From NCBI GenBank assembly GCA_944392085.1, contig CALXVN010000001.1:1-42010 (forward strand): a stretch of DNA of 42,010 nt. Direction: 5' to 3'. Source of the stretch: an uncultured Clostridia bacterium. Its GTDB lineage: Bacteria; Bacillota; Clostridia; TANB77; CAG-508. Both the position numbers and the translations under genes were made by a program. Positions 1,726 through 20,047 of the stretch are shown in pieces. Each line of letters opens with the position of its first letter. Position 1 is the stretch's first letter. The notes under the pieces are model-generated. The model was not told the origin of the DNA and ran no database searches. It was given only the letters and a program-made list of their open reading frames with translations.

Positions 1726-1907
1726 TTTTGTCGCGTTAGGGACAGGCATTTTCGAGCCATTAAAAAATAAATTTGATAAGATGAAAAAGATATGAATAAA
1801 AAGTACAAATTTTTCCATAATAAATTAATGAAATTAAATATTTTAGTTAAAATATGTTAAAAATAAGAAATATGTGGTATAATTCGAGTGTCCCTATCGC
1901 GACAAAA
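1726..1907. repeat. MITE-like unit: 19-bp terminal inverted repeats (TTTTGTCGCGTTAGGGACA ... TGTCCCTATCGCGACAAAA, 18/19) around a 144-bp AT-rich core that carries the apparent mgtA promoter
   Basis: Left arm 1726-1744, right arm 1889-1907. The arm sequence recurs at 17115-17182 and 20014-20047. Confidence 0.55.
1855..1883 (+). promoter_or_regulatory. Putative sigma-A promoter of mgtA (TGTTAA -17- TGgTATAAT)
   Basis: Extended -10 TGGTATAAT ends at 1883. The weak -35 TGTTAA is at 1855-1860. Confidence 0.45.
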
Positions 1908-1927
1908 CGAAAGAAGGTATGATATTT

Positions 1928-4501
1928 ATGTACGATAAAGAATGTACAAGCAGTGTAGAAGAATTTATTAAGGAGAATAATTTTAATAAAAGAGGATTAA
2001 CAACAACTGAAGCAAGAAATAATTTGATAAAGTATGGTAAAAATGTGATGAAACAAAAGAAACCAAAACAATGGTACAATTATTTGTTTGAAAGTTTGTT
2101 TAGTACGTTTAATTTAATTTTATTAGGTATTGTTATTGTTTTATTTTATACAGATGTTATTTTATCTGAGCCACCAAGTTATGCAAATATTATAGTTATT
2201 TTAATTTTGATATTGGCAAGTACTATGCTTGAATTTTTTGAAGTGTATAGGTCTAATAAAGCAGCAGAAAAATTAAAAAATTTAGTTTCAGTTAAAACTA
2301 CTGTTATAAGAAATGGAAAAGTTACAAAGGTACCATCTTTTAATGTTACTATAGGAGATGTGGTAGTATTATCTGCAGGAGATTTAATACCAGCGGATTT
2401 AAGAATAATTGAAGCTAAGGATTTATATGTAGTGCAATCTTCTTTAACTGGTGAGAGTGATTCAGTAAAAAAAGTTGCTGAGTCTGAACAAAATGGAAAG
2501 ATAGAAGATATAACAGATTTAGATACAATTTGTTTTATGGGGACAAATGTAATGAGTGGGTCTGCTAAAGGAATTGTATTTAAAGTAGGTGATGACACAT
2601 ATTTTGGAAAAATTGCAGATAATATTACAGATGAAAAACCAAAAACTTCTTTCCAACAAGGAATAGAAAATGTTAGTAAATTGTTAATAAAATTTATGGC
2701 GGTTCTAATACCAATAACTTTTATAGCAAATGCTGCAAAGCATGGAACTATTACTGCTTTTACTTTTGCAGTTGCTATTGCTATAGGTATAACACCACTG
2801 CTATTGCCAGTAATACTTTCATCTAGTTTAGCAAAAGGTGCAACTAGAATGTCCAAGAAAAAAACTATTGTAAAAAAGTTAGACAGTATTCAAAGTTTTG
2901 GTGCAATGAATATTTTATGTACAGATAAAACAGGAACTCTTACAGAGGATAAAATTGTTCTTGAAAAATATTTGGACATAAAAGGAGAGGAAGATACAAG
3001 AGTATTAAAACATGCATTTTTAAATTCATATTTTCAAACAGGACTAAAGGGAAATATAGATGAAGCGGTTATTGCAAGAACAGCTAAGACTGAACTAAAG
3101 GGAATAGAAGAAAATTATGAAAAGATAGATGAGATACCATTTGATTTTTCAAGAAGAAGATTATCTGTGGTAGTATCAGATGGAAAAAAGAATCAATTAA
3201 TTACAAAGGGCGCAGTAGAAGAAATATTAAGTATTTGTACATTGGTTGACTATAAAGGTGAAGTTTCAGAAATAACAAAAGAAATAAAACAAAATATATT
3301 GAAAATAACAAAAGAATTAAACAAGGAAGGGCTAAGAGTTGTTGCAGTTTGTCAAAAAAATGACATAGAAGGAATAACAAGTTTTTCTGTTAAAGATGAA
3401 TGTAAAATGGTACTTATGGGATTTATAGGATTTTTAGATCCACCAAAAGAAAGTGCCAAAGATGCAATAGCAAGGTTAAATAAAGATGGAATAAGGGTTA
3501 TAGTTTTAACTGGAGATAATGAATACGTAACAAAAGCAATATGCGAGAAGGTAAATATAAATACAGATAAAATTATATTAGGAAGCAAAATAGAAAAATT
3601 ATCAGATACAGCATTAAAAAGACATTTAAAGAAAACTAATGTTTATGCAAAGCTTTCTCCTATACAAAAAGCAAGAATTGTAAGAGTGCTAAAAGAAGCA
3701 GGTAATGTAGTAGGCTATATGGGAGATGGAATTAATGATGCACCATCAATGCACAATGCAGAAGTTGGAATTTCAGTAGATACAGCTGTTGATATAACAA
3801 AGGAAACAGCAGACATAATACTTCTTGAAAAGGATTTAGATGTTTTAACAGATGGTGTAATTGAAGGTAGAAAGACATTTGGAAATCTTTTAAAATATAT
3901 AAAAATGGCTGTAAGCTTTAATTTTGGAGAAGTTTTATCTGTATTAATTGCAAGTGTGCTATTACCATTTTTCCCTATTACACCAATACAGTTACTAGTG
4001 CAAAGTTTAATATATGATATTGGCCAACTATCTATTCCATATGATAATGTAGATAAAGAATATCTAGAAAAGCCAAGGGTATGGAATATAAAAAGTTTAA
4101 AAAGGTTTATGCTATATATGGGACCTACAAGCTCAATATTTGATTTAATAGTATTTGCTTCATTATGGTTTGTTTTTGGTTTGAGAATGCCAGATGCTGC
4201 ATTATTTCAATCAATATGGTTTTCATATGGTGTTGTTTCAAATTTAGTAGGATTACACATAATAAGAACTTCTAAAACACCATTTATACAAAGTAATGCA
4301 TCAAAAGCAGTCTATGCTACTTCAATAATTTTAAGCATAGTTGCAATAGCAATACCATTTACTTTTATAGGAAGATATATAGGATTAACAGCAATACCAT
4401 TTAAATATTTTAGTGTAATTTTATGCGTGCCTATTTTATATTGTTTCTTAGCAAGTTTGGTAAAAAGAAGATATATTAAGAAATATGGCGAATGGGTATA
4501 G
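1928..4501 (+). CDS. mgtA: Mg2+-importing P-type ATPase (MgtA/MgtB type)
   Basis: TGES, phosphorylation motif CTDKTGTLT, MGDGINDAPS hinge, about 860 aa with 10 TM-like segments. ATG at 1928 has better spacing to GAAAGAAGG than ATG at 1919. Confidence 0.9.
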   Translation: MYDKECTSSVEEFIKENNFNKRGLTTTEARNNLIKYGKNVMKQKKPKQWYNYLFESLFSTFNLILLGIVIVLFYTDVILSEPPSYANIIVILILILASTMLEFFEVYRSNKAAEKLKNLVSVKTTVIRNGKVTKVPSFNVTIGDVVVLSAGDLIPADLRIIEAKDLYVVQSSLTGESDSVKKVAESEQNGKIEDITDLDTICFMGTNVMSGSAKGIVFKVGDDTYFGKIADNITDEKPKTSFQQGIENVSKLLIKFMAVLIPITFIANAAKHGTITAFTFAVAIAIGITPLLLPVILSSSLAKGATRMSKKKTIVKKLDSIQSFGAMNILCTDKTGTLTEDKIVLEKYLDIKGEEDTRVLKHAFLNSYFQTGLKGNIDEAVIARTAKTELKGIEENYEKIDEIPFDFSRRRLSVVVSDGKKNQLITKGAVEEILSICTLVDYKGEVSEITKEIKQNILKITKELNKEGLRVVAVCQKNDIEGITSFSVKDECKMVLMGFIGFLDPPKESAKDAIARLNKDGIRVIVLTGDNEYVTKAICEKVNINTDKIILGSKIEKLSDTALKRHLKKTNVYAKLSPIQKARIVRVLKEAGNVVGYMGDGINDAPSMHNAEVGISVDTAVDITKETADIILLEKDLDVLTDGVIEGRKTFGNLLKYIKMAVSFNFGEVLSVLIASVLLPFFPITPIQLLVQSLIYDIGQLSIPYDNVDKEYLEKPRVWNIKSLKRFMLYMGPTSSIFDLIVFASLWFVFGLRMPDAALFQSIWFSYGVVSNLVGLHIIRTSKTPFIQSNASKAVYATSIILSIVAIAIPFTFIGRYIGLTAIPFKYFSVILCVPILYCFLASLVKRRYIKKYGEWV

Positions 4502-4517
4502 ATTGACCAATATTATG

Positions 4518-4546
4518 TTGACTTCAACAAGAAAATGTGATAATAT
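4518..4546 (+). promoter_or_regulatory. Near-consensus promoter TTGACT -17- TAATAT with TGn extension
   Basis: TTGACT at 4518-4523, TG at 4538-4539, TAATAT at 4541-4546, about 30 nt upstream of the small ORF. Confidence 0.6.
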
Positions 4547-4577
4547 ATATATATCAACCTAAAAGGGAGGATTAATT

Positions 4578-4754
4578 ATGGCTTTGTCTGATTGCGAAAA
4601 ATGCTGGGATACCCCTTGCACATGTGGATGGGGATATCGAGATTATTCCGATATGGAATTTGCAGAGTTTATTGCGAATATACTCTCATACAGAGAAAAC
4701 AAAATTGGAATTTTAGAAGAAGCCAAAAAAATCATTATTAAGAAATCAGAATAA
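4578..4754 (+). CDS. 58-aa protein with N-terminal CxxCx4CxC knuckle (MALSDCEKCWDTPCTCGWGYRDYSDMEFAEFIANILSYRENKIGILEEAKKIIIKKSE); not in ORF track
   Basis: AAAGGGAGG lies 8 nt upstream of the ATG. The ORF has its own promoter and a strong terminator directly downstream. Confidence 0.7.
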   Translation: MALSDCEKCWDTPCTCGWGYRDYSDMEFAEFIANILSYRENKIGILEEAKKIIIKKSE

Positions 4755-4759
4755 TGATT

Positions 4760-4787
4760 TCCCCATTCTAGTTCGATAGAATGGGGA
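4760..4787 (+). terminator. Rho-independent terminator (TCCCCATTCTA-GTTCGA-TAGAATGGGGA + TTTATT)
   Basis: 11-bp perfect stem, 6-nt loop, T-rich tail. Confidence 0.8.
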
Positions 4788-4854
4788 TTTATTAATTAAA
4801 AAAATAAATAAAATCATCTGGAAATAGTAAACTTTATATAATAAGAGCAACTTT

Positions 4855-5565
4855 TCAAATACTCTCTAAAGCAAGTTTTATCATATCATTTAATGAACGT
4901 TCTCTTTCTTCAGAAGTACTTTCTTGATTTTTGTAATGAGAATCAACTACTGTCAGCAAACAAGCAGCTTTTTTATTAAAATATTTGGCCATGTAAAATA
5001 AAGCAAAAGCTTCCATTTCGCAAGCTATGATATTTAAGTCTTTTGGAAATCTAGATATGAAAGCTTCAATATTATCTAAATACCCATCAAAACAGTCATT
5101 ACACAAGGTATTTCCTTTGATATATGATATACCAATTTTTTTTGCAGTTTCTTCTAATTTTGAATTTAATTCATTATCAGCCTCGGCGATATGGCACTCT
5201 TTCTCGCTCCATTCGTAAGCAAAATTTCCTTCTGTATAACTTTTATCAACTAAAATCGTATCAAATAAGTTTAAATCTTCATTATATGCTCCACAAGAAC
5301 CAATTCTAATAATTTTTTCAACATCATAGAATTTAAATAATTCATAAGAATAAATTCCCATACTAGGCATTCCCATTCCAGAAGAAAATACAGTAACTTC
5401 TTTTCCTTTATATGTTCCAGTATATGCAAGCATATTTCTAACTGTATTTACGAGTGTAGCATCTTCTAAAAAGTTTTCTGCAATATATTTTGCTCTTAAT
5501 GGATCTCCTGGCATAAGTACAGTTTTCTTAATATCTTCTTTTTTCGCATTACAATGTATAGACAT
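4855..5565 (-). CDS. deoD: Purine nucleoside phosphorylase, DeoD type
   Basis: 236 aa. VLMPGDPLRAKYIAENFL, SSGMGMPSMGIYSYELF and ACEMEAFALF are typical of hexameric DeoD PNPs. Confidence 0.9.
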   Translation of the reverse strand: MSIHCNAKKEDIKKTVLMPGDPLRAKYIAENFLEDATLVNTVRNMLAYTGTYKGKEVTVFSSGMGMPSMGIYSYELFKFYDVEKIIRIGSCGAYNEDLNLFDTILVDKSYTEGNFAYEWSEKECHIAEADNELNSKLEETAKKIGISYIKGNTLCNDCFDGYLDNIEAFISRFPKDLNIIACEMEAFALFYMAKYFNKKAACLLTVVDSHYKNQESTSEERERSLNDMIKLALESI

Positions 5566-5669
5566 AAATTACCTCCTTTTTTATTTATATTGTATATACT
5601 ATACCTTTGTTTAATTAAATTGGATTAATATATTTATTAGTTGAAATAATAAAATTATCTGCATAAAAA

Positions 5670-7605: not shown

Positions 7606-7625
7606 TTTTTTGTAGGAAGGTAAAA

Positions 7626-7865: not shown

Positions 7866-7918
7866 AAATATGTCCTCCTTCCAATAAAATGTTATTCATC
7901 GAGTAGATGAATATATTT

Positions 7919-7953: not shown

Positions 7954-8535
7954 TCATAGATATTTCTCTATTTCTTTCCATACATTATCGGTATAAATCT
8001 TCCTTTCAGAAGAATAAGGTAAAAAAGTAAGGTCTTTTAGTGGATTTAATTCATTTTGTAAATTTTCTACATAAGAATTTACTTTTGTAACAGCAATTTT
8101 ATCCGCTTTATTTGTAATGATAATACAAGGCTTATTACTATCTATAATATAACGATACATAAGTCTATCGTTTTCAGTAGGAGAATGTCTTATATCAATT
8201 AAAAAAATTATTAAAGCAATATTTTTACTTTTAGATAAATATTCCTCTATAAAATTACCTACTTTAACTTGTTCTTGTTTAGACATTTTGCTATATCCAT
8301 AACCTGGTAAATCAACAAAATAAAATTTATCATCCATACTATAGAAATTAATTTGTCTAGTTTTACCAGGTTCACTACTAGTTCTTGCAAGTTTTTTTCG
8401 ATTAACCATAGTATTTATAAAAGAAGATTTACCTACATTTGATTTACCAACCAATACAATTTGTGGAAGTCCATCACTAGGGTATTGTTTTGGACTTACT
8501 GCTGAAATTTTAAAATCTGGATTTTTTATTATCAT
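7954..8535 (-). CDS. engB: Ribosome-biogenesis GTPase YsxC/EngB
   Basis: G1 GKSNVGKSSFIN, G3 DLPGYG, G4 TNKADK, 193 aa. Confidence 0.92.
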   Translation of the reverse strand: MIIKNPDFKISAVSPKQYPSDGLPQIVLVGKSNVGKSSFINTMVNRKKLARTSSEPGKTRQINFYSMDDKFYFVDLPGYGYSKMSKQEQVKVGNFIEEYLSKSKNIALIIFLIDIRHSPTENDRLMYRYIIDSNKPCIIITNKADKIAVTKVNSYVENLQNELNPLKDLTFLPYSSERKIYTDNVWKEIEKYL

Positions 8536-8550
8536 TTTTACTCCTTTTTA

Positions 8551-8644
8551 GTTTGCACAATCGGGGACGTACACCTTTTGCGCAATTTTAAAAAGTAATT
8601 ATATCATTTTTGCGCAAAAGGTGTACGTCCCCGATTGCGCAAAC
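8551..8644. repeat. Large GC-rich palindrome: 35-nt arms (34/35 complementary) around a 24-nt AT loop, exactly filling the serS-engB gap
   Basis: Arm 8551-8585 is GTTTGCACAATCGGGGACGTACACCTTTTGCGCAA. Arm 8610-8644 is its reverse complement apart from one mismatch. Confidence 0.9.
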
Positions 8645-8646
8645 TT

Positions 8647-9933
8647 TTATTTTTTTGGTTCTAATTTTGAGATTCCTCCCATATAAGGGCGAAGAACTTC
8701 AGGGATATTGATGCTTCCATCTTTATTATAGTTATTTTCTAAGAATGCGATAAGCATACGTGGTGGAGCAACAACAGTATTGTTTAAAGTATGTGCATAA
8801 TAATTTCCTTTTTCTCCTTTAATTCTGATTCCTAAACGTCTTGCTTGTGCATCCGTTAGGTTAGAGCAACTTCCAACTTCAAAGTATTTTTTCTGTCTTG
8901 GGCTCCATGCTTCTACATCACAGCTTTTTGCTTTTAAATCAGCCAAATCCCCACTACAACATTCTAAAGTACGAACTGGAATATCCATACTTCTAAATAG
9001 TTCTACTGTATATGACCATAATTTATCATACCATTTCCAACTATCTTCTGGTTCGCATACTACTATCATTTCTTGCTTTTCGAATTGATGAATACGATAT
9101 ACACCACGTTCTTCTATTCCATGAGCTCCTTTTTCTTTTCTGAAGCATGGAGAATATGATGTCATTGTATATGGCATATCTGCTTTTTGCAAGATTTGTC
9201 CTTTAAATTTTCCTATCATAGAATGTTCGCTAGTTCCTATTAAATATAAATCTTCGCCTTCTATCTTATACATCATAGCATCCATTTCTTCAAAACTCAT
9301 AACTCCTGTTACGACATTACTACGAATCATATATGGTGGGATGCAATAAGTAAAACCTTTATTTATCATGAAATCTCTAGCATAAGAAAGTATTGCAGAA
9401 TGAAGTCTTGCAACATCTCCCATTAAGTAATAGAATCCGTTTCCAGCAACTCTACGAGCAGAGTCTAAGTCTAAACCATTTAAACTTTCCATTATATCTG
9501 CATGGTAAGGTATTTCATAATCAGGAACAAATGGCTCACCAAATTTTTCTATTTCAACATTTTTACTATCATCTTCGCCAATTGGAACAGATTCGTGAAT
9601 TATATTTGGAATTTTCATCATTCTTTCTGTTATTGCAGATGCATATTCTGTTTCTAATTTTTCATTTTCTTCAAGTTCTTTATTTATTTCTTGAACTTGT
9701 GCCTTTATAGTTTCAGCTTCATTCTTTTTTCCATTTTTCATTAAGTTTCCAATTTCAGAGCTTAATGAATTTCTTTTCATTCTAAGTTCATCACCTTTTA
9801 ATTTTACATCTCTGTTTTTTTTGTCTAATTCTAAAACTTCATCAACTAAAACAAGTTTGTGATTTTGAAATTTTTTCTTAATGTTTTCTTTTACTAAATC
9901 TGGATTTTCTCTTAAAAATTTAATATCTATCAT
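8647..9933 (-). CDS. serS: Seryl-tRNA synthetase
   Basis: 428 aa. N-terminal coiled-coil arm, class II motifs (FRKE..., GVYRIHQFEKQE, NNTVVAPPRMLIAFLEN). Confidence 0.95.
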   Translation of the reverse strand: MIDIKFLRENPDLVKENIKKKFQNHKLVLVDEVLELDKKNRDVKLKGDELRMKRNSLSSEIGNLMKNGKKNEAETIKAQVQEINKELEENEKLETEYASAITERMMKIPNIIHESVPIGEDDSKNVEIEKFGEPFVPDYEIPYHADIMESLNGLDLDSARRVAGNGFYYLMGDVARLHSAILSYARDFMINKGFTYCIPPYMIRSNVVTGVMSFEEMDAMMYKIEGEDLYLIGTSEHSMIGKFKGQILQKADMPYTMTSYSPCFRKEKGAHGIEERGVYRIHQFEKQEMIVVCEPEDSWKWYDKLWSYTVELFRSMDIPVRTLECCSGDLADLKAKSCDVEAWSPRQKKYFEVGSCSNLTDAQARRLGIRIKGEKGNYYAHTLNNTVVAPPRMLIAFLENNYNKDGSINIPEVLRPYMGGISKLEPKK

Positions 9934-9944: not shown

Positions 9945-10195
9945 CTCTTCAAAGATGGTTTCAAATAAAACAAAACCCATATGCAAAAAGCATAAGGGCG
10001 AGATTTATTTCGCGGTACCACCTTAATTATTCAAAAATAAATTGAAAACTTTATAACGCTTATAACCTAGCATCAATCGGTCTTATTTTCATAAGAAGCT
10101 TTTAAAAGTAGATTCATAAAACATTTTAAGCTATTTACACCAACCATAGCCTCTCTAAATAAAATTAATTTTATTACTATTCTTTTATCAAACGC
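9945..10195 (-). promoter_or_regulatory. T-box leader of serS (candidate specifier UCU)
   Basis: Minus strand reads AGAGAG..GGTTGGTG (stem I elements), GAA-TCT-A (candidate specifier, complement of 10110-10112) and T-box AAGGTGGTACCGCG (complement of 10011-10024). The terminator is CCCTTATGC-TTTTT-GCATATGGG + TTTTGTTTT. Confidence 0.85.
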
Positions 10196-10211
10196 TTTTT
10201 AAAACAATAAT

Positions 10212-11894: not shown

Positions 11895-13748
11895 TTACTC
11901 AACAGTAACCGATTTTGCTAAGTTTCTTGGCTTATCTACATCTAAACCTTTAAATTTAGAAATATAGTATGAAAGTAATTGCATTGGTATAATAGACAAA
12001 ATTGGTGAAAGTAGCGGATTTGTTTCAGGTATATTTATTACATAATCAAAATGGCTATTCGTAAGTATTTGGTTTGTTATAACTAAAGTTTTAGCACCTC
12101 TTGTAATAACTTCTTGTAGATTACTAATTGATTTTTCTACTAAATTTGGATTTGTAATAATCCCTATTACAGTAACACCATTTTCTATTAAAGCAATAGG
12201 TCCATGTTTTAATTCACCTGCTGCATAAGCTTCTGAGTGAATATATGAAATTTCCTTTAACTTTAAAGATCCCTCTAAGGCAACATTATAATCCATGTTC
12301 CTTCCTAAGAAAAACATATCTTTTTCAGTATATATTTTTTGAGCAAACTCTTTTATTGGTTCTACATTATCTAATATTTTTTCTATTTTGGTTGGCAAAT
12401 CAATCATATCAGTCTTTAAATCCAAAATTGTTTTTTCGTCTGAGCTTCCTAAAATTTCTGCAAAATACATTGCAAGGATAGCAATAAGTGCAACTTGTGA
12501 TGTATATGCCTTAGTGGAAGCAACAGCAATTTCAGGACCTGCATGAGTATATATTGTATAATCTGCTTCTCTTGTAATAGAGCTTCCAATAACATTAGAT
12601 ATAGCCAATGTTTTAGCTCCTTTTGATTTTGCAAGCTTTAAAGCTGCAATAGTATCAGCTGTTTCACCAGATTGACTAATATATATACATAAAGTATGTT
12701 CATCTATTATAGGGTCTCTATATCTAAATTCAGAAGCTATATCTACTGTTGTAGGTATTTTGCAAAGATTTTCTATTAAAGTTTTTCCAACTAATCCAGC
12801 ATGCATTGCTGTTCCACAAGCTACAATGTATATGTTATTTATACTCTTTAAATATTCCTTTGAAATATCAATATCATCAAAAGAGCATTTTTCACCTAAA
12901 CGGAATCTTGAACCAATTGTTTCTCTAATTGCAGTTGGCTGTTCAAAAATTTCTTTTAACATATAATCCTCATATCCACATTTATCAGCAGCATTCGAAT
13001 CCCATTCAATATTTTTGATTGGTTTGCTATGTTCTGTTAAAGAACTATCATAGAATTTTACTATATCCTTAGAAATTACAGCAAATTCATTATCATCTAA
13101 AAGATAAAACTCTTTTGTATACTTTAAAATTGCTGGAATATCAGATGCAATATAATTTTCTCCACCTCCTTTTCCTATTACTAAAGGACTATCTTTTCTA
13201 ACTACAATAACTTCATTAGGGCATATAGGAGAGATAACTTCTATAGCATAACTTCCTTTTAAATCATTTACAGCAGATTTTACAGAACCTAAAAACTTTT
13301 CTAAACTATCTTTTAGAACAGAAACTGGTCCATTTGTATAATAATAGTGAATTAGGTTAGGAATAACTTCAGTATCAGTTTGAGATAAGAAAGTATATCC
13401 TTTAGAAATCAAAAATTCCTTAAGCTCTATATAATTTTCAATAATTCCATTATGCACAACAGCAAAAGTATTACTATTATCCATATGAGGATGAGAGTTT
13501 TCTCTGCATGGTTTCCCATGAGTTGCCCATCTAGTATGTGCAATACCAACTGTACCGATTAAATCATGTATTCCATCTAAATTTTCTAAATTTTTTACTC
13601 TACCTTTATCTTTCATTACTTTTATTACATCATTTTCAATAGTTGCAATTCCTGCTGAATCATATCCTCTGTATTCTAAACTTAATAATCCATCAAGTAA
13701 AATTGGTGTAGCTTTTTTATTACCAATGTAACCTACAATTCCACACAT
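11895..13748 (-). CDS. glmS: Glutamine--fructose-6-phosphate aminotransferase
   Basis: MCGIVGYIG Ntn start, two SIS domains, C-terminal LAKSVTVE. Confidence 0.96.
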   Translation of the reverse strand: MCGIVGYIGNKKATPILLDGLLSLEYRGYDSAGIATIENDVIKVMKDKGRVKNLENLDGIHDLIGTVGIAHTRWATHGKPCRENSHPHMDNSNTFAVVHNGIIENYIELKEFLISKGYTFLSQTDTEVIPNLIHYYYTNGPVSVLKDSLEKFLGSVKSAVNDLKGSYAIEVISPICPNEVIVVRKDSPLVIGKGGGENYIASDIPAILKYTKEFYLLDDNEFAVISKDIVKFYDSSLTEHSKPIKNIEWDSNAADKCGYEDYMLKEIFEQPTAIRETIGSRFRLGEKCSFDDIDISKEYLKSINNIYIVACGTAMHAGLVGKTLIENLCKIPTTVDIASEFRYRDPIIDEHTLCIYISQSGETADTIAALKLAKSKGAKTLAISNVIGSSITREADYTIYTHAGPEIAVASTKAYTSQVALIAILAMYFAEILGSSDEKTILDLKTDMIDLPTKIEKILDNVEPIKEFAQKIYTEKDMFFLGRNMDYNVALEGSLKLKEISYIHSEAYAAGELKHGPIALIENGVTVIGIITNPNLVEKSISNLQEVITRGAKTLVITNQILTNSHFDYVINIPETNPLLSPILSIIPMQLLSYYISKFKGLDVDKPRNLAKSVTVE

Positions 13749-13771: not shown

Positions 13772-13940
13772 AGAAAGCATTACAAATATAGATTACCCTA
13801 TTAGCTTTGTTTACTAATATTACTATTAGGTTTTAACTAATAATTATGGCAGTAATCTAATGCCAAGAAACCATCCGCCGAATATTTCGATAAGTTTCTT
13901 CCTCGTCAACGTATAAGATAAATACGTCCAGGCGCTTAAA
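13772..13940 (-). promoter_or_regulatory. glmS ribozyme in the glmS 5' leader
   Basis: Minus strand reads AAGCGCCTGGAC ... GTTGACGAGGAAGAAACTTATCGAAATATTCGGCGGATGGTTTCTTGGC. That gives the A|GCGCC cleavage site and the conserved GACGAGG...UAUCGAA..UUCGGCGGAUG core. Confidence 0.88.
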
Positions 13941-14132
13941 ATTTATAGTATGCATTTGTAAAGCTTTTCTCTTATGCATAGTATATTACTATAAAATAAA
14001 AAATGTGTCAAATAGTATTGTAAAATATATAAATTTATGCTAAAATAATACTATTAAAAATAGCTTTGCTATTTTTTCCTTACTTATGACATAAAAGTTC
14101 ATAGGTTATATATCCATAAGGAGGTGAAGGTA

Positions 14133-14411: not shown

Positions 14412-14459
14412 TAGTTACTATAGGGGGCCTTTAAAAAAGAAAGGTAAAAGGTGTAAAAA

Positions 14460-14888: not shown

Positions 14889-14933
14889 ACCTATTTAAAC
14901 CTTATAAATTAAAGATGCAAGGGGGTAAGAATA

Positions 14934-15218: not shown

Positions 15219-15224
15219 TAAGAA

Positions 15225-15261
15225 AACTTGAGCAAAGAATTATTTTGTTCAAGTTTTTTTT
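15225..15261 (+). terminator. Terminator of the rpsF-ssb-rpsR operon
   Basis: AACTTGAGCAAA ... TTTGTTCAAGTT stem (one mismatch) followed by T8. Confidence 0.8.
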
Positions 15262-15331
15262 GTGTAAATAACAGTTTAAAAATACACCAAAATGCAAATA
15301 ATATATACATATAAAGGAGAGTAATGTATAT

Positions 15332-16183
15332 ATGAAAATCGGTGTAGCTTTGTCTGGAGGAGGAGCAAGAGGTTTAGCACATGCAGGAGTGCTTAAAGCT
15401 TTAGAAGAAAATGGAATAAAAATTGATGTTATAGGTGGAACAAGTGCTGGAAGCATGGTTGCAAGCTTATATGCAATGGGATATAATCCAGATGAGATAT
15501 TTGATAGTTTTGTGAATAATTATAGCAAAATAATTGGAGGAAAAAACTTTTCGCTATTTAATGGAATAAAAAATTTTATAAGCAAAGATATATGTGGTTT
15601 AAAAAAAGGTGAAAATATAGAAGGAGTATTTAATTTGCTAGCTAAAAATAAAAATATTGATGTTATAAGCAATATAAAAATGCCACTAGTAATTCCAACA
15701 GTAGATATTAAAGATTCAAAGGAATATATTTTTACAAACAATATTCCACAAAATGAAAATAATTGTTATAAAAAATATATTACAGACATAGGTATTGGAG
15801 AAGCGGTAAGAGCTAGCAGTAGTTTTCCAGCTGTATTTAATTTATGTACAATACAAAAGCATGCTTTTATAGATGGGGGAGCATTAGATAATATTCCTGT
15901 AGAAGAAGTAAGAAAACAAGGTGCAGATAAAGTACTTGCAGTAAAATTTGAAGAAGATAAGATTGACGAAAATAGTAATATGATGGATATTGTAATGAAA
16001 ACAATAGATATAATGGGAAGCAAAATTGCAGAGAAAAATTTAGAAAAAAGTGATTATGTGTTAAATATAAATACAGAAAAAATGGGACTTTTAGAAATAA
16101 AAAATATGGAAAGATGTTTTGAATATGGCTATGAAGCAGTAAAAATGAATATAGAAGAAATAAAAAAAGCATTGCAAGAATGA
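15332..16183 (+). CDS. Patatin-like phospholipase
   Basis: GGGARG oxyanion motif, GTSAGS nucleophile elbow, DGG catalytic Asp motif (FIDGGALDN). Confidence 0.85.
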   Translation: MKIGVALSGGGARGLAHAGVLKALEENGIKIDVIGGTSAGSMVASLYAMGYNPDEIFDSFVNNYSKIIGGKNFSLFNGIKNFISKDICGLKKGENIEGVFNLLAKNKNIDVISNIKMPLVIPTVDIKDSKEYIFTNNIPQNENNCYKKYITDIGIGEAVRASSSFPAVFNLCTIQKHAFIDGGALDNIPVEEVRKQGADKVLAVKFEEDKIDENSNMMDIVMKTIDIMGSKIAEKNLEKSDYVLNINTEKMGLLEIKNMERCFEYGYEAVKMNIEEIKKALQE

Positions 16184-16237
16184 AAAAAAAATGGTATTAT
16201 TGTATAAGTTATGTAATTATTAAAGGGGAATTTGTAA

Positions 16238-17140
16238 ATGAACAAATACATAAAATATATAATAGTAGCAGTTATATTTTTAGTTATTATTGTAACATTA
16301 GTAATTTTAAATATAAATAAAAAAAATAAAGATAAAGAAAATGATGAAAAAATAAAAATAGTTACATCATTTTATCCAATGTATATTATAGCAGAAAATT
16401 TGCTAGAAGGCACAAACAATACCGAACTTGTTAATATGGCAGATGTGAATGTAGGTTGTTTGCATGATTATACATTAACAACAGAAGATATGAAAAAAGT
16501 AGAAAATGCAGATATTTTTATTGTAAACGGACTTGGAATGGAAAACTTTTTAGATAAAGTTATAAATTTAAATAGTAATATGCATATAATAGATTCAAGT
16601 ACAAATATACAAAACTTAATAAAAGATGAAGATGAAATTAATCCACATATTTGGACAAGTATAGACAATTATATTTTACAGGTTAAAAACATTTCAAAAG
16701 AATTGCAAAATAAAGATAACTTAAATGAAGAAATTTATAAGGAAAATGAAGAAAAATACGTAGAAAAATTAGAAAACTTAAAAGAAGAATATTTAGAAGC
16801 ATCAAAAGAATTAGAAGGGCAAAAAGCGATAATTTTAAATGAAGCTTTTGAATATTTTGCTCAAGAGTTAAAAATAGAAGCAACAACAATAAAAACAGAC
16901 CATGAGGAAAGTACATTATCAGCAGAAACATTAAAAAATATAATAGATAAAGTAAAAGAAGAAAATATTAAAATAATAATAATTGACAAAAACGATAATA
17001 AATCAAATGCAGAAACAATAGCAAATGAAACAGGAGCTACGATATATGAATTAAATTCCGGATTAACAGGAAGTTTAGAAAAAGATGCATATATAAAAGC
17101 TATAGAAGAAAATCTTTGTCGTTTTAGGGACAGGCCCTAA
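16238..17140 (+). CDS. Metal (Zn/Mn) ABC transporter substrate-binding protein, ZnuA/TroA type; the last 8 codons and the stop lie inside a repeat element
   Basis: N-terminal membrane anchor, cluster-9 SBP features (NPHIWTS, HDY). The tail ...EENLCRFRDRP* is encoded by 17114-17140. Confidence 0.82.
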   Translation: MNKYIKYIIVAVIFLVIIVTLVILNINKKNKDKENDEKIKIVTSFYPMYIIAENLLEGTNNTELVNMADVNVGCLHDYTLTTEDMKKVENADIFIVNGLGMENFLDKVINLNSNMHIIDSSTNIQNLIKDEDEINPHIWTSIDNYILQVKNISKELQNKDNLNEEIYKENEEKYVEKLENLKEEYLEASKELEGQKAIILNEAFEYFAQELKIEATTIKTDHEESTLSAETLKNIIDKVKEENIKIIIIDKNDNKSNAETIANETGATIYELNSGLTGSLEKDAYIKAIEENLCRFRDRP

Positions 17141-17182
17141 AACGACAAAAGTGTCGCTTTAAGGCCTGCCCCTAAAACGACA
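17115..17182. repeat. Two tandem hairpins of the GGGACAGG palindromic family, between znuA-like and znuC-like genes
   Basis: Hairpin 1 is TTTGTCGTTTTAGGG-ACAGG-CCCTAAAACGACAAA (15-bp perfect stem). Hairpin 2 is TGTCGCTTT-AAGGCCTGCCCCT-AAAACGACA. It ends 1 nt before the AGGAGG of the next gene. Confidence 0.85.
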
Positions 17183-17194
17183 AAGGAGGAGAAA

Positions 17195-17923
17195 ATGGAG
17201 AAAGCTTGTGGATTGCACTGTACAAAAATTAATAATATTGGAGTTAAAATTGGAAATGATGAGATTTTAAAAAATGTAAATATACATATTCATTGTGGAG
17301 AATTAACTGTAATTATAGGAAGAAATGGTGCAGGTAAAAGTACACTCCTTAAAGCTATTTTAGGAGAAATTGAGCATACGGGGAATATTACATTTGTTGA
17401 CCAAAAAGATAATATCACAAAGAAAATAAAAATTGGCTATGTACCACAAAGTATAAATGTAGAAAAACATATGCCAACAACGGTATATGATTTCTTTGCT
17501 TCTTGTATTACGCATATACCAGTATTTTTAAAAAAAGATAAAAAGATATATAACGAAATAAAAGAACATTTAGCAATATTTGGAGCAGATTCACTTATAG
17601 ACAAAAGCATAGGAGATTTATCAGGTGGGGAACTACAAAGAGTGCTTATAGCTATTGCAACAAAACCAACACCTAATTTACTTATTTTAGATGAACCAGT
17701 TTCCGGAATAGATAGAAATGGTATAAAAGATTTTTACAATATTATAAGTAAATTAAAATCTGAATATGATATGTCTATTATACTTGTATCACATGACTTA
17801 GATTTAGCAAGTAAATATGCAGACAAGGTTATTTTACTAGATAAAGAAGTAATAAAAGAAGGAAAACCAGAAGATGTTTTTAAAAGTTTAGAATTTAGAA
17901 ATAGGTTTGGAGAATTAGCATAA
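17195..17923 (+). CDS. Metal ABC transporter ATP-binding protein (ZnuC type)
   Basis: Walker A GRNGAGKST, signature LSGGELQR, Walker B LLILDEP. Confidence 0.9.
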   Translation: MEKACGLHCTKINNIGVKIGNDEILKNVNIHIHCGELTVIIGRNGAGKSTLLKAILGEIEHTGNITFVDQKDNITKKIKIGYVPQSINVEKHMPTTVYDFFASCITHIPVFLKKDKKIYNEIKEHLAIFGADSLIDKSIGDLSGGELQRVLIAIATKPTPNLLILDEPVSGIDRNGIKDFYNIISKLKSEYDMSIILVSHDLDLASKYADKVILLDKEVIKEGKPEDVFKSLEFRNRFGELA

Positions 17924-17937
17924 AATATGGGGGAAAA

Positions 17938-18814
17938 ATGGAAATAATAGATAGTATATTAGAAGTAATATTACCTTTTGAATTTATTAATTATGAATTT
18001 ATGAAAAATGCGTTAATCGCAATAATATTGATATCACCGATTTTTGCAATACTAGGAACAATGATAGTAAATAACAAAATGGCATTCTTTTCAGATGCAT
18101 TAGGGCATTCAGCACTAACAGGAATAGCACTTCGGAAGTTTAATTGGAATAAGTAATCTAAATATTGGAATGATAATATTTGCAATTGGTTTTGCACTTT
18201 TACTAAATTGGGTAAAAAATAAAACAACATATGGATCAGATACAATAATAAGTGTATTTTCATCAATTGCAATTGCTTTAGGACTTGCAATATTAGCACA
18301 AACAGGTAGCTTTAATCAGTATTCGAGCTATTTGGTAGGAGATATTTTAAGTATAACAGATTCAGAAATATTATATGTATTTTTAATTGCGATAGTTGTA
18401 TTAGTATTTTGGTATTTTACATTTAATAAATTACACTTAATAAGCATAAATTCAACACTTGCAAAGAGTAAAGGTGTAAAAACAAAAAAAATAGATAATA
18501 TTTTTGCTGTCTTAATTGCAATTGTAGTAATGATTTCAATTAGATGGATAGGAATATTATTAATAAATTCATTACTTATTTTACCAGCAGCATCAAGCAG
18601 AAACATTGCAAAAAATATGAGATTGTATCATTTATACGCAGTGCTATTCTCTTTATTCTCAGGTATAACAGGACTTATTTTATCATATTACTTTAATATA
18701 CCAACAGGACCAATGATAGTAATATTGTCTGGTGGAATTTATTTTATGACGTTAGCAGTAAAGGGAAAAGTATTAAATAAATTTAGTAAAGGAGAATTAA
18801 AAAATGGAGAATAA
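17938..18814 (+). CDS. Metal ABC transporter permease (ZnuB type), interrupted: frame break at CTT-CGG (18130-18135)
   Basis: ORF 17938-18156 ends ...FFSDALGHSALTGIAL-R-KFNWNK*. The +1 frame from 18134 reads GSLIGISNLNIGMIIFAIGF... and continues into ORF 18170-18814. Confidence 0.85.
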
Positions 18815-19313
18815 TATTGATTTAGAAAGGAGTCTAAAAAGATTAAAAACAAAAAGAAATTTATTAGTAGTAATATTAGTTGTAGAGTTAATAATAATTA
18901 CTTTATTAGTTAGAGGATTTTTGGAGAATCAAAATTATGAAGGAATAAGTATTAGGGAACAAGAAATAGATATTTATAACTATGAATTTGAAGTATATGG
19001 TGGTATAGTGAGAGGATCAAAAGCTAAGGCTTTGTGTGATAAGATAAAGAATCATAATCTTAGCGCTTCTGATGCTTCTCAGTTAATAGTATTAAAAGAA
19101 GGAAAAGTAGAAGAATCGGTAAAAGCACTAACAGAAGGGGATGACTTGTATTTAACAACAGAAGAATATATAAATAGTATAAAATTAAAAATTATGAGTG
19201 GTAAAACTTATAAAATTAGTTTTGAATATGATCCAGATACAGGAATGATTACAACAATAGGTATTGAAGAAATTGTTATAGAAGAAGGTGAAAATACTAA
19301 TGTTGAACAATGA
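18804..19313 (+). CDS. Hypothetical membrane-anchored protein (169 aa), start overlaps the permease stop
   Basis: ATGGAGAATAA overlap with the preceding stop. One N-terminal TM segment (LLVVILVVELIIITLLV). Confidence 0.6.
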   Translation: MENNIDLERSLKRLKTKRNLLVVILVVELIIITLLVRGFLENQNYEGISIREQEIDIYNYEFEVYGGIVRGSKAKALCDKIKNHNLSASDASQLIVLKEGKVEESVKALTEGDDLYLTTEEYINSIKLKIMSGKTYKISFEYDPDTGMITTIGIEEIVIEEGENTNVEQ

Positions 19314-20010
19314 AAAAGATGAAGAAGTTGAATTAAAAAAATACATAAAAGAAAAAAGAAGATTGATAATACAAATAATTATTCTTACAATATGTATAGT
19401 AGTGTTAACGTTTTTTCTTATAAGTATATATTATAGGAATAGGTCAATGCAGGATACGGCTCTTAAGCCAATAATATATATATATCCAGAAGAAAAAATG
19501 CAAATAAGCGTAAAGCTTGGAAAACCAGAAAAATTAACATGTACATATCCTAAATATACTGATGAGTGGAAAGTAATTGCAAATCCAGATGGAACTTTGG
19601 AAGATATAGCAACAGGAAGAGAATATTATTCTTTATATTGGGAAGGACTAGAATATAGTGCAGGAAAGAATATGCAAGAAGGATTTATAGTAAAAAATGA
19701 AGATATAGTTTATTTCTTAGAAGAAAAACTAGAAATATTAGGATTGAATGATATAGAAGCACAAGAATTTATTATATATTGGTTACCAAAGTTAGAACAA
19801 AATAATTATGTATATATAAGATTTAAAACTATGGAAGAAATAAATGAAGAAATGCCACTAATATTTAGTAAAAATCCAGATACATTAATAAGAATTATGA
19901 TGGAATGGAAAGGAATGGATAAGTATAAAGAAATTAAAGAGCAAAAATTGGAAAAGACAGAAAGAAACGGTTTTACAATTGTAGAATGGGGAGGAGTAGA
20001 AATAAAATAA
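19300..20010 (+). CDS. Hypothetical membrane-anchored protein (about 236 aa)
   Basis: One N-terminal TM segment, then a soluble domain (PIIYIYPEEK...). Overlaps the previous ORF. The start could be GTG 19288 or ATG 19300. Confidence 0.6.
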   Translation: MLNNEKDEEVELKKYIKEKRRLIIQIIILTICIVVLTFFLISIYYRNRSMQDTALKPIIYIYPEEKMQISVKLGKPEKLTCTYPKYTDEWKVIANPDGTLEDIATGREYYSLYWEGLEYSAGKNMQEGFIVKNEDIVYFLEEKLEILGLNDIEAQEFIIYWLPKLEQNNYVYIRFKTMEEINEEMPLIFSKNPDTLIRIMMEWKGMDKYKEIKEQKLEKTERNGFTIVEWGGVEIK

Positions 20011-20013
20011 AGA

Positions 20014-20047
20014 TGTCGCGAAAAGGCCTGTCCCTAACGCGACAAAA
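20014..20047. repeat. GGGACAGG-family hairpin immediately 5' of the trpS RBS
   Basis: TGTCGCG-AAAAGGCCTGTCCCTAA-CGCGACA. GCCTGTCCCTAACGCGACAAA is the reverse complement of the left arm at 1726-1747. Confidence 0.85.

What the first reader, a model, noticed from the sequence alone, without database searches (positions are those of the whole stretch)
1726..20047. GC-rich palindromic repeat family with core TTAGGGACAGGC whose right end abuts the ribosome-binding site of the downstream gene at three loci
The 12-mer TTAGGGACAGGC, or its complement, occurs at 1736-1747, 17124-17135 and 20026-20037. The 8-mer GGGACAGG also sits in the divIVA terminator (30676-30683). With six G/C in this AT-rich background, I roughly estimate that such an 8-mer should appear far less than once per 42 kb. 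In all three main copies the arm ...CCCTAA(C/A)(G/A)CGACAAA(A) points the same way relative to a + strand gene. It ends 0-4 nt before that gene's Shine-Dalgarno sequence (mgtA, the znuC-like gene, trpS). Two of these copies are inside an operon. This positional and orientational bias is not expected of a randomly scattered MITE. It suggests selection as an RNA element, such as a 5' stabiliser or processing hairpin, a translational-control stem or a protein-binding site. All three downstream genes are linked to divalent metals (Mg importer, Zn/Mn ATPase, Cys-cluster TrpRS), which may or may not be coincidental.
Basis: partly seen in the sequence, partly recalled or inferred. Interest (0 to 1): 0.65.

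Follow-up and report, generated by a model that had tools for sequence, protein, structure and literature searches.

The report
REP hairpin repeats with RAYT transposase
The GC-rich palindromes are copies of a REP-type mobile hairpin family that goes with a domesticated tyrosine transposase gene lying just past the window's end; they sit hard against ribosome-binding sites in one orientation and against stop codons in the other, which is unusual for this known kind of element.

Summary
TTAGGGACAGGC occurs exactly where stated, and the arm CCCTAANNCGACAAA occurs 6 times against 0.5 expected.

The elements are 31-35-nt hairpins. Their lower stem differs between subfamilies, but the apical GGGAC(A/G) is invariant. 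In 228 kb from the window and related uncultured low-GC Clostridia MAGs, the core heptamer occurs 79 times against about 4-5 expected, and 65 copies are intergenic.

An equally large mirror class, GGGACAG-sense, abuts or supplies the stop codon of the upstream gene.

The decisive result is a neighbouring gene. In same-species contigs (98.9% identical), a 266-aa Y1/HUH transposase gene starts 214 nt past the window's end and is flanked by two exact inverted copies of the hairpin. Its best structural match is E. coli TnpA-REP (4ER8). Its position next to radA, and its flanking arrays of lineage-specific hairpins, persist down to 45% protein identity.

This is a REP-RAYT system, not a dedicated metal-linked RNA regulator. 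It is a new variant: no GTAG/CGTC tag, a Clostridia host, and polar placement at ORF boundaries. The cause of that polarity is inferred, not shown.

The parts
1726..1760 (+). Full REP copy (TTTTGTCGCGTTAGGGACAGGCATTTTCGAGCCAT) with a degenerate right arm. The GGGACAG strand is +. It points towards the divergent gene 473-1681(-): CTGTCCC-sense for that gene, with the core 57 nt before its start.
   Evidence: (I5: 91% complementary to 20013-20047)
1886..1907 (-). Half copy, arm only: GAGTGTCCCTATCGCGACAAAA. It starts 7 nt after a TATAAT box (1873-1878) and ends 2-4 nt before the mgtA SD. It has the same TATCGCGACAA variant as the copies that flank the transposase gene.
8550..8585 (+). REP of a second subfamily (core GGGACGT, arms TTGCGCAA/TTGTGCAA). 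It is in ACGTCCC-sense for the minus-strand GTPase gene 7954-8535 and abuts that gene's SD.
   Evidence: (I3: 36-nt arms, 97% complementary)
8610..8645 (-). Inverted partner of 8550-8585. It lies 1 nt after the serS stop codon (gene 8647-9933, minus strand) in GGGACGT-sense. A TGATATAAT box lies between the two copies.
17114..17150 (+). Perfect-palindrome REP with a 16-bp stem (-21.9 kcal/mol). The ZnuA-family ORF (16238-17140) reads into it and ends at the TAA of CCCTAA.
17152..17185 (-). Second REP of the tandem pair, with variant core CTGCCCC. Its arm runs into the SD of the ABC ATPase gene (ATG 17195).
20013..20047 (-). REP monomer that fills the spacer between ORF 19300-20010 (stop 3 nt upstream) and the trpS SD (ATG 20059).
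30669..30727 (+). Hairpin after divIVA that has GGGACAGG within its stem. It shares only the core, so membership of the family is uncertain. It is conserved in same-species contigs.
40119..42010 (+). GH15 gene cut by the window's end. In same-species contigs it ends at a TAG inside a REP that starts 35 nt past the window. The RAYT gene then starts 214 nt past the window and is followed by the exact inverted REP abutting the radA SD.

Best explanation
The palindromes are REP (repetitive extragenic palindrome) elements of a REP-RAYT system in an uncultured low-GC Clostridia lineage.

Shown:
- They are 31-35-nt hairpins with an invariant apical GGGAC(A/G) and a lower stem that covaries between subfamilies.
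- They are dispersed, mostly intergenic, and often arranged as 35-nt-period dimers or inverted pairs.
- A Y1/HUH transposase closest to E. coli TnpA-REP is encoded between the GH15 gene and radA, 214 nt past the window's end. It is flanked by two exact inverted copies of this species' REP variant.
- The gene's position next to radA and its flanking arrays of lineage-specific hairpins are kept in relatives down to 45% protein identity; the GH15 upstream neighbour is kept down to 48%.

Inferred from the mechanism established for TnpA-REP and IS200/IS605 transposases: the enzyme recognises the hairpin of one DNA strand (here the GGGACAG strand, which folds better and carries the G-T pairs) as single-stranded DNA, and cuts and rejoins it. 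That activity spreads and homogenises the copies.

Inferred for the polarity: on the GGGACAG strand, the monomer form resembles an intrinsic terminator, with a GC-rich stem base followed by a T-run. Copies therefore persist in that sense only directly after stop codons, where they often supply the TAG. In leaders and intercistronic spacers only the opposite, non-terminating sense is tolerated, so those copies end up against the SD. Inverted pairs with the conserved arms facing outward, the same layout as around the transposase gene, give this arrangement automatically.

Once transcribed, the hairpins probably have REP-like side effects on mRNA ends. They are not a dedicated regulator of the three metal-related genes.
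For: Family and hairpin:
- The core CTGTCCC/GGGACAG occurs 79 times in 228 kb against about 4-5 expected, and 65 copies are intergenic.
- Among 24 subfamily representatives, 10 of 12 stem pairs show compensatory changes. The covariation score is 0.642 against 0.225 for shuffles (0 of 500 reach it), and GGGAC is invariant.
- Dimers have a 35-nt period.

Transposase:
- Pfam Y1_Tnp scores 41-47 bits against a cut-off of 23.
- The NCBIfam best hit is NF047646, REP-associated tyrosine transposase, at 55-66 bits. The IS200 model scores 18-22 bits.
- A profile search of the PDB finds only one relevant match, 4ER8 TnpA-REP (E=0.0012), aligned across the HUH and Tyr motifs.
- HUH (H62, H64) and Y121 in RYIHxNP are invariant or nearly so.
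- The AlphaFold model (pLDDT 89.7) best matches 4ER8 (E=1.9e-7, TM 0.71). IS608 and ISDra2 TnpA follow at about 1e-4.
- JGI names one homologue RayT.

Flanking copies:
- L036 is 98.9% identical to the window. It has TTGTCGCGATAGGGACAGGCCTTTTCGCGACAA at the GH15 stop and its exact reverse complement at the radA SD.
- L026, L034 (a paralogue with its own subfamily), L042, L043, L044 and L045 are all flanked by inverted hairpin arrays.
- The RAYT gene stays next to radA in L042, L043 and L045, and next to GH15 in L042, L043 and L044.

Polarity:
- Between co-directional genes there are 28 CTGTCCC-sense and 28 GGGACAG-sense copies.
- After removing orthologues, 13 of 20 lie at the SD (1.9 expected) and 10 of 18 at the stop codon (3.4 expected, P=4e-4).
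- In the TGTCG subfamily, 17 SD-adjacent copies are all one sense and 10 stop-adjacent copies are all the other. Seven of those 10 use the REP's TAG as the stop codon.
- The GGGACAG strand is the more stable in 59 of 70 copies.
- Twelve of 17 monomer copies have at least 5 T in the 8 nt after the stem on that strand.
- The window's tandem pair is flagged as minus-strand terminators.

Turnover: occupancy of orthologous sites differs between the window and L021, and between L007 and L015.

Precedent: REPs close to ORF 3' ends that supply TAG stop codons (PMC3733652), and REPs within 15 nt of stop codons (PMC12306157).
Against: - No transposition, excision footprint or empty site at strain level was seen. 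Presence/absence comparisons are between species about 80% identical, where the spacers no longer align.
- The transposase scores below NCBIfam's trusted cut-off for RayT (58.5 against 80 bits) and carries a roughly 120-aa C-terminal helix-turn-helix extension that E. coli TnpA-REP lacks.
- The elements lack the GTAG or CGTC tags of the described REP superfamilies.
- The selection-filter account does not explain why copies sit within 0-3 nt of the SD even where the leader seems about 40 nt long (L022, L020, L032).
- It also does not explain why the non-terminating sense is absent from 3' ends that are followed by a long spacer.
- An automated tail count found no T enrichment for stop-adjacent copies as a whole (3.0 of 8, which is background). 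Only monomer forms show it.
- Copies at the radA and disA SDs persist across deep divergence, which may point to a function.
- The hairpins used in the covariation test were pre-selected by predicted folding.
- Whole-genome copy number and strand bias relative to replication could not be measured.
Confidence: 0.8

Rival explanations
1. Domesticated boundary elements. The REPs are kept because they work in an orientation-specific way. After stop codons they terminate or 3'-stabilise the sense transcript. Before the SD they either terminate antisense transcription leaving the gene body or act as a 5' hairpin that protects or insulates the ribosome-binding site. The transposase serves only to maintain them.
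For: - Placement is sharp at both ORF boundaries even where spacers are 100-400 nt.
- Sites at the radA, disA and mgtA SDs stay occupied in lineages whose transposases are 45-58% identical, while the hairpin sequence itself has changed.
- SD-adjacent monomers have a T-run on the antisense strand (8 of 11 with at least 5 T).
- The non-terminating sense is absent from 3' ends that have long downstream spacers.
- REPIN doublets in Pseudomonas are reported to be randomly distributed in extragenic space (PMC3116915), so this pattern is not a generic REP property.
Against: - There are no expression data.
- The sense-strand hairpin of many SD-adjacent copies is weak (-6.4 kcal/mol).
- Orthologous genes in related species do without the element, for example window 5566-5669 against L021 1470-1545.
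- At mgtA the transcript probably starts inside the element, so no hairpin can form.
- Inverted-pair geometry together with a filter against terminators inside operons gives the same picture without any benefit to the cell.
Confidence: 0.25
2. One reading: a cis-acting RNA element (5' stabiliser, processing hairpin, translational-control stem or protein-binding site) selected upstream of particular genes, possibly metal-related, and unrelated to mobile DNA.
For: - Fixed orientation and a distance of 0-11 nt from the SD at many genes.
- Two copies in the window lie inside operons.
Against: - The same sequence also occurs in the opposite sense at stop codons, and in inverted pairs around a tyrosine transposase gene.
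- Downstream genes are functionally diverse.
- There is no Rfam match.
- The transcribed strand folds worse than its complement, and the wobble pairs lie on the other strand.
- Occupancy differs between related species.
Confidence: 0.07
3. A miniature inverted-repeat transposable element (MITE) derived from a DDE-type insertion sequence. The about 20-nt arm would be its terminal inverted repeat, and the short hairpins would be minimal repeat-plus-repeat units.
For: - Arms occur as inverted pairs that enclose 25-140 nt, at window 1726-1907 and 8550-8645.
- An arm also occurs alone, at 1886-1907.
Against: - The 140-nt interior of 1726-1907 is not repeated anywhere in 270 kb.
- No target-site duplication or conserved flank was found.
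- No DDE transposase carrying these ends was seen.
- The only transposase that is consistently flanked by the repeats is the Y1/HUH type.
Confidence: 0.03
4. A palindromic DNA operator for a transcription factor, defining a metal or other regulon.
For: - Palindromic symmetry.
- Location near the starts of three metal-related genes in the window.
Against: - Copies lie inside operons, at 3' ends, in tandem arrays and in frame within ORFs.
- The lower stem covaries between subfamilies, which a DNA-binding site would not allow.
- Neighbouring genes are diverse.
Confidence: 0.02

Closest known systems
REP/REPIN-RAYT systems of Escherichia coli and Pseudomonas (TnpA-REP, PDB 4ER8; Bertels & Rainey 2011, PMC3116915; Bertels et al. 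2017, PMC5581495)
   Same: - Short imperfect palindromes, dispersed and mostly extragenic.
- Arranged as singlets, inverted doublets and clusters.
- A Y1/HUH transposase flanked by inverted copies of its own repeat.
- Each transposase paralogue or lineage has its own repeat variant.
- The transposase is inherited vertically at a conserved position.
   Different: - The host is an uncultured low-GC Clostridia lineage. Group 1 RAYTs were noted in Clostridia, but with only low-abundance flanking 16-mers (PMC5581495).
- The protein is 266 aa with a C-terminal helix-turn-helix region, against 165 aa for the 4ER8 chain. It scores below NCBIfam's RayT cut-off.
- Copies are not randomly placed in extragenic space, unlike what is reported for SBW25 doublets. 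They abut SDs or stop codons according to orientation.
GTAG- and CGTC-tagged REP superfamilies (Di Nocera, De Gregorio & Rocco 2013, PMC3733652)
   Same: - A superfamily defined by a short invariant motif plus family-specific stems.
- Copies lie close to ORF 3' ends and often provide the TAG stop codon.
- Some copies lie in frame inside ORFs.
- Copies are rare between divergent genes.
   Different: - The invariant motif is GGGAC(A/G) in the apical stem and loop, not an unpaired GTAG or CGTC at the foot. Neither tag is present.
- That survey does not mention Firmicutes or Clostridia.
- There, copies between co-directional genes sit near the upstream ORF and at variable distance from the downstream one. 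Here, half of the copies sit against the downstream SD.
IS200/IS605 single-strand transposons (IS608, ISDra2)
   Same: - The same HUH/Tyr catalytic fold (Foldseek E about 1e-4).
- Recognition of subterminal hairpins on one strand. This mechanism is inferred here, not shown.
   Different: - The IS200 model scores only 18-22 bits.
- The gene appears at one conserved position in each lineage examined rather than as scattered copies.
- The flanking hairpins are inverted relative to each other, not direct.
- No conserved target tetranucleotide was found next to the copies.
5'-terminal and intercistronic stabiliser hairpins of Firmicutes mRNAs, and 3' REP stabilisers such as E. coli malE-malF (from general knowledge, not tested here)
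   Same: A stem-loop directly upstream of an SD or directly after a stop codon is where such stabilisers act. This matches how the copies are placed.
   Different: - Those elements are locus-specific structures, not a dispersed family tied to a transposase.
- Here the sense-strand hairpin is often weak.
- No RNA ends were mapped.

Membership tests
REP (repetitive extragenic palindrome) elements | Short (20-40 bp) imperfect palindrome able to form a hairpin | tested here: met
   Units of 31-35 nt. Among 24 subfamily representatives, 10 of 12 stem pairs show compensatory changes, with a covariation score of 0.642 against 0.225 for shuffles. Caveat: the hairpins were pre-selected by RNAfold.
REP (repetitive extragenic palindrome) elements | Many dispersed copies, predominantly extragenic | tested here: met
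   79 cores in 228 kb against about 4-5 expected, 65 of them intergenic. There are 7 units in this 42-kb window, and 14 exact 20-mer matches in one MAG. Whole-genome copy number was not measured.
REP (repetitive extragenic palindrome) elements | Copies flank a RAYT gene in inverted orientation | tested here: met
   L036 has exact inverted 32-nt copies on the two sides of the gene. The same layout is seen in L026, L034, L042, L043, L044 and L045.
REP (repetitive extragenic palindrome) elements | GTAG or CGTC tag at one end (described superfamilies) | tested here: not met
   The consensus TTGTCGYTTTAGGGACAGGCCTTTTSGCGACA has neither tag at an end. The invariant motif is the apical GGGAC.
REP (repetitive extragenic palindrome) elements | Higher-order units: inverted doublets (REPINs) or clusters | tested here: met
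   Where both senses occur in one spacer between co-directional genes, the order is always GGGACAG-sense then CTGTCCC-sense (for example L003, L007, L018, L027 twice, L004, and window 1726-1907, 8550-8645 and 17114-17185). Direct dimers have a 35-nt period.
REP (repetitive extragenic palindrome) elements | Evidence of mobility (insertion or excision polymorphism) | tested here: inconclusive
   Occupancy differs between the window and L021, and between L007 and L015. Those spacers no longer align. Same-species contigs showed no empty site.
RAYT (REP-associated tyrosine transposase) | Y1/HUH fold with HUH motif and catalytic tyrosine | tested here: met
   PF01797 at 47 bits. H62, H64 and Y121 (RYIHxNP) are conserved. 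The model has pLDDT 89.7.
RAYT (REP-associated tyrosine transposase) | Closer to TnpA-REP than to IS200/IS605 TnpA | tested here: met
   NF047646 scores 58.5 bits against 21.5 for the IS200 model, though this is below the 80-bit trusted cut-off. 4ER8 is the only relevant PDB profile hit. Foldseek gives 4ER8 E=1.9e-7 against about 1e-4 for IS608 and ISDra2.
RAYT (REP-associated tyrosine transposase) | Conserved genomic position and vertical inheritance rather than IS-like spread | tested here: met
   The gene lies upstream of radA-disA in L036, L042, L043 and L045, and downstream of GH15 in L036, L042, L043 and L044, at 45-58% protein identity. Copy number per genome was not measured. A 32%-identical paralogue exists in another MAG.
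RAYT (REP-associated tyrosine transposase) | Binds and cleaves its REP as single-stranded DNA | not testable with these tools
   Needs biochemistry. The only indirect hint is strand asymmetry: G-T/G-U pairs and better folding on the GGGACAG strand.
Intrinsic (factor-independent) terminator | GC-rich stem followed directly by a U-tract on the transcribed strand | tested here: inconclusive
   On the GGGACAG strand, 12 of 17 monomer copies have at least 5 T in the next 8 nt. Dimer forms and the pooled stop-adjacent class do not (3.0 of 8). Half of all copies are transcribed in the opposite sense.
Curated cis-regulatory RNA families (Rfam 15) | Match to a covariance model at the element | tested here: not met
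   Nothing at the elements in the window or in 25 related loci at gathering threshold. Only T-box, glmS, tRNA and SRP matched elsewhere.

The most novel reading that the evidence does not exclude
In this lineage the REPs may be more than tolerated passengers. They may be orientation-coded boundary modules kept in place by a vertically inherited transposase linked to radA and disA. In this reading, the GGGACAG-strand hairpin always faces outward from the intergenic region, so that RNA polymerase leaving a gene body is stopped at the ORF boundary: sense transcription at the 3' end and antisense transcription at the 5' end. The copy before the SD would also give the mRNA a defined structured 5' edge.
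Probability: 0.15. Interest if true: 0.75.

Novelty: new variant of a known kind. Interest (0 to 1): 0.45.

Why it matters
What REPs do, and why single-copy RAYT genes persist for long periods, is still unsettled. Almost all work has been done in Proteobacteria.

This family adds three things:
- It extends an abundant REP-RAYT system to low-GC gut Clostridia.
- It shows a superfamily defined by an apical GGGAC motif rather than a GTAG or CGTC foot.
- It displays a clean split in placement: one sense sits against stop codons and often supplies the TAG, and the other sits against Shine-Dalgarno sequences.

If that split reflects function rather than a filter on insertions, it gives a concrete handle on REP biology. 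If it reflects a filter, it is a clear case of host gene expression shaping where a selfish hairpin can survive.

There are practical consequences too. These elements extend ORF calls, mimic terminators on the wrong strand, and may coincide with contig breaks and gene gain or loss. One example is an extra gene next to a REP in one strain.

Tried and rejected
- Rfam scans of the window and of 25 related loci found nothing at the elements.
- Metal-regulon idea: rejected, because genes downstream of other copies are diverse.
- Long MITE idea: the 140-nt interior of 1726-1907 has no other copy in about 270 kb.
- Target-site search: the 8 nt flanking the conserved arm share nothing beyond T-richness or the SD complement, and there is no duplication.
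- Idea that SD adjacency is forced by short spacers or short leaders: upstream genes are 17-445 nt away. The best -10-like boxes lie anywhere from 0 to 53 nt upstream of the hairpin, with no fixed position, so this explains only part of the adjacency.
- Test for RNA selection on the sense strand through wobble pairs: at the sixth stem pair, SD-adjacent copies more often have C-A (a mismatch in the sense RNA) than U-G, by hand count of the sequences. Overall, the complementary strand folds better.
- Automated count of T after the stem for all subfamilies: hairpin ends are ill-defined in dimers, so the result was replaced by a count restricted to the TGTCG subfamily.
- A single-sequence PDB search with the transposase found nothing relevant. 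A profile search and a fold search were needed.
- Strain-level empty sites were sought with exact-protein look-ups for the ABC ATPase and TrpRS. Only identical contigs came back.
- Eight of the 33 genome-scan loci (cyanobacteria, Poribacteria, Sphingomonas and others) were set aside as chance matches of the 18-specified-base pattern.

Full report
**1. Observation**

The 12-mer TTAGGGACAGGC is present exactly at 1736 (+), 17124 (+) and 20026 (-). A one-mismatch copy lies at 17164 (-).

The 8-mer GGGACAGG occurs five times against 0.17 expected from shuffles. One site is the hairpin after divIVA.

The arm CCCTAANNCGACAAA occurs six times against 0.49 expected.

The units are about 33-nt palindromes:
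- 17114-17150 is a perfect 16-bp stem into which the ZnuA-family ORF reads, ending at the TAA of CCCTAA.
- 17152-17185 runs into the SD of the ABC ATPase gene.
- 20013-20047 fills the spacer between an upstream ORF and the trpS SD.
- At mgtA there are two separate pieces. A full copy at 1726-1760 faces the divergent gene. An arm-only copy at 1886-1907 starts 7 nt after a TATAAT box and ends just before the mgtA SD.

Gene identities were confirmed.

**2. The family outside the window**

A scan of one genome per species with TTGTCGNNTTAGGGACAGGC gave 33 loci. Twenty-five come from seven uncultured "Clostridium/Clostridia" MAGs, and the rest are chance matches in unrelated phyla.

In the window plus these loci (228 kb, 30% GC), the core heptamer CTGTCCC/GGGACAG occurs 79 times against about 4-5 expected. 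It is the most frequent of all 105 permutations of its letters, whose median count is 5. Sixty-five copies are intergenic.

The core sits at the top of hairpins whose lower stems differ between subfamilies. Examples are TTGTCG/CGACAA, TTGCGCAA, TTGTGCA/TGCACAA, GTGGAAT/ATTCCAC, TGAGAA/TTCTCA and TGGTTAAT/ATTAACCA. Among 24 representatives, 10 of 12 stem pairs show compensatory changes while GGGAC stays invariant. The covariation score is 0.642 against 0.225 for shuffles and 0.14-0.31 for slid controls. The caveat is that these hairpins were pre-selected by predicted folding.

Many copies form dimers with a 35-nt period, of the form core-arm-arm'-core-arm.

The window holds a pair of a second subfamily (core GGGACGT) at 8550-8585 and 8610-8645, between the serS stop codon and the SD of a GTPase gene.

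No Rfam family matches any of these elements.

**3. Position and orientation**

Between co-directional genes, 28 cores are CTGTCCC-sense, and 18 of them lie 17-32 nt before the start codon. That places the arm 0-11 nt from the SD, although the upstream gene is 17-445 nt away.

Another 28 cores are GGGACAG-sense. These cluster at -14 to +19 nt from the stop codon of the upstream gene.

After orthologous loci are removed, the counts are 13 of 20 (1.9 expected under uniform placement) and 10 of 18 (3.4 expected, P=4e-4).

In the TGTCG subfamily, 17 SD-adjacent copies all have one sense and 10 stop-adjacent copies all have the other. In 7 of those 10, the ORF reads TTG TCG YTT TAG, so the element supplies the stop codon.

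Where both senses occur in one spacer between co-directional genes, the order is always stop-side sense then SD-side sense, so the conserved arms face the genes.

Only one copy lies between divergent genes.

The same rule holds for the diverged hairpins of more distant lineages, with some exceptions in L043 and L044.

Downstream genes are diverse, so the metal link is coincidental.

**4. Which strand matters**

The GGGACAG strand folds more stably than its complement in 59 of 70 copies, whatever the class. G-U pairs appear only on that strand.

On that strand, the monomer form is usually followed by a T-run: 12 of 17 copies have at least 5 T in the next 8 nt. The scan tool flags the window's tandem pair as minus-strand terminators.

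SD-adjacent copies are therefore transcribed in the weaker sense, which has no U-tract. Stop-adjacent copies are transcribed in the terminator-like sense. An automated tail count pooled over all subfamilies did not show T enrichment for the stop-adjacent class. The terminator resemblance is thus limited to monomers.

**5. The transposase**

Ten ORFs flanked by cores were scanned against Pfam, and two are Y1_Tnp:
- L034 80-838(-) lies between inverted hairpins of the TGCAC subfamily, and its stop codon TAG is inside one of them.
- L026 6151-6954(-) lies between inverted TGTCG hairpins.

L026 is syntenic with the window's last 670 nt. Same-species contigs (98.5-98.9% identical) continue past the window's end in this order:
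- The GH15 gene (window 40119-42010, cut by the window's end) stops at a TAG inside TTGTCGCGATAGGGACAGGCCTTTTCGCGACAA, which begins 35 nt beyond the window.
- A promoter-like stretch follows.
- A 266-aa Y1_Tnp gene starts 214 nt beyond the window.
- The exact reverse complement of the same hairpin follows, abutting the radA SD.
- A further copy lies at the disA SD.

The TATCGCGACAA variant of these copies is the one found in the mgtA arm in the window.

Evidence on the protein's family:
- Its best NCBIfam hit is REP-associated tyrosine transposase (58.5 bits, below the 80-bit cut-off). The IS200 model scores 21.5 bits.
- HUH and the tyrosine in RYIHxNP are conserved.
- A profile search of the PDB finds only one relevant match, 4ER8 TnpA-REP.
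- The AlphaFold model (pLDDT 89.7) best matches 4ER8 (E=1.9e-7). IS608 and ISDra2 transposases follow at about 1e-4.
- One homologue is named RayT by JGI.

Homologues at 58, 53, 48 and 45% identity occupy the same chromosomal neighbourhood. Each is flanked by inverted arrays of its own lineage's hairpins, with cores GGGACAG or GGGACGT and different arms. This pairing of a transposase with its own repeat family is the signature of REP-RAYT systems (PMC3116915, PMC5581495).

**6. Turnover**

Occupancy differs between related species:
- The L021 orthologue of window gene 4855-5565 has two arms in its leader, while the window has none.
- The two mgtA leaders carry different arrangements.
- L007 and L015 share the SD-adjacent copy but differ in the upstream array.

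No strain-level empty site was found.

**7. Interpretation**

Identity as a REP-RAYT system is well supported.

How the polarity arises is inferred. The simplest account combines three points:
- Inverted pairs have outward-facing conserved arms, which is the layout around the transposase gene.
- There is a filter against the terminator-like sense inside transcription units.
- The terminator-like sense is retained at 3' ends.

This account leaves some features unexplained, above all the 0-3 nt distance to the SD where leaders seem longer. It also does not explain why the non-terminating sense is missing from 3' ends, or why sites at radA and disA stay occupied over deep divergence. An orientation-specific function therefore remains possible (about 0.25, including the boundary-terminator reading at 0.15).

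**8. Comparison with known systems and novelty**

Known REPs also sit close to ORF 3' ends and can supply TAG stop codons (PMC3733652). REPs within 15 nt of a stop codon are discussed as translational modulators (PMC12306157).

The differences here are:
- There is no GTAG or CGTC tag.
- The conserved motif is apical.
- The host is a Clostridia lineage. Group 1 RAYTs were noted in Clostridia, but with only low-abundance flanking repeats (PMC5581495).
- The transposase has a C-terminal helix-turn-helix extension.
- Half of the copies sit against the downstream SD in a fixed sense. By contrast, uni-REPs are reported at variable distance from downstream ORFs, and REPIN doublets as randomly distributed in extragenic space.

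I file this as a new variant of a known kind, of moderate interest.

Noticed in passing
window 24292-24359 and 38315-38382: A 68-nt direct repeat (88% identical). Each copy lies about 70-180 nt upstream of a gene (starts at 24542 and 38454) and contains the hairpin ATGTACATTTTCTTTC...GAAAGAAAAGTACAT. There is no credible Rfam match even at E<=0.5. It may be another repeat family or a shared leader.
   Followed up: partly
window 332-389: A perfect 58-nt palindrome (29 + 29 nt, no loop) between tRNA-Gln and the 3' end of the nucleoside-transporter-like gene 473-1681(-). It contains CCCTAAAAAGG/CCTTTTTAGGG but not the GGGAC(A/G) core.
   Followed up: no
window 33256-34146 (gene 32318-34138); L036 4162-5685: Three tandem 297-nt repeats inside a gene with faint fn3 and GH85_C hits. 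A same-species contig encodes a 507-aa version against 606-609 aa here, so the repeat number varies between strains.
   Followed up: partly
L037 9337-10277: One strain carries an extra 209-aa FGase-family gene inserted directly after the REP at the GH15 stop codon. Its SD abuts the REP's other arm. This is gene gain or loss next to a REP.
   Followed up: partly
L021 5210-6214; window 4580-4755: The related species L021 has a spore-photoproduct-lyase gene between the divergent gene and mgtA that the window lacks. The window has a small Cys-rich ORF (MALSDCEKCWDTPCTCGWGY...) downstream of mgtA that L021 lacks.
   Followed up: no
L017 2283-2313: A REP copy lies in frame inside a 1255-aa ORF, with no stop codon in the reading frame. 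This resembles the intragenic REPs reported in other phyla. It could also be a fused gene call.
   Followed up: no
window 9991-10201 (-) and 13789-13947 (-): A T-box leader lies upstream of serS, and a glmS ribozyme lies upstream of the 617-aa gene at 11895-13748 (not itself identified here). Both score at or above the Rfam gathering threshold.
   Followed up: no
L021 4990-5110 (mgtA leader) and 2268-2400: The L021 mgtA leader is built from two nested helices, GGGGACAGGC...GCCTGTCCCC and AAAGGGACAG...CTGTCCCTTT. The 5' end of the transcript would pair with the sequence that abuts the SD. The convergent region after mgtA holds five further cores, including CTGTCCCTAATTGGGGACAG followed by a T-run.
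   Followed up: partly
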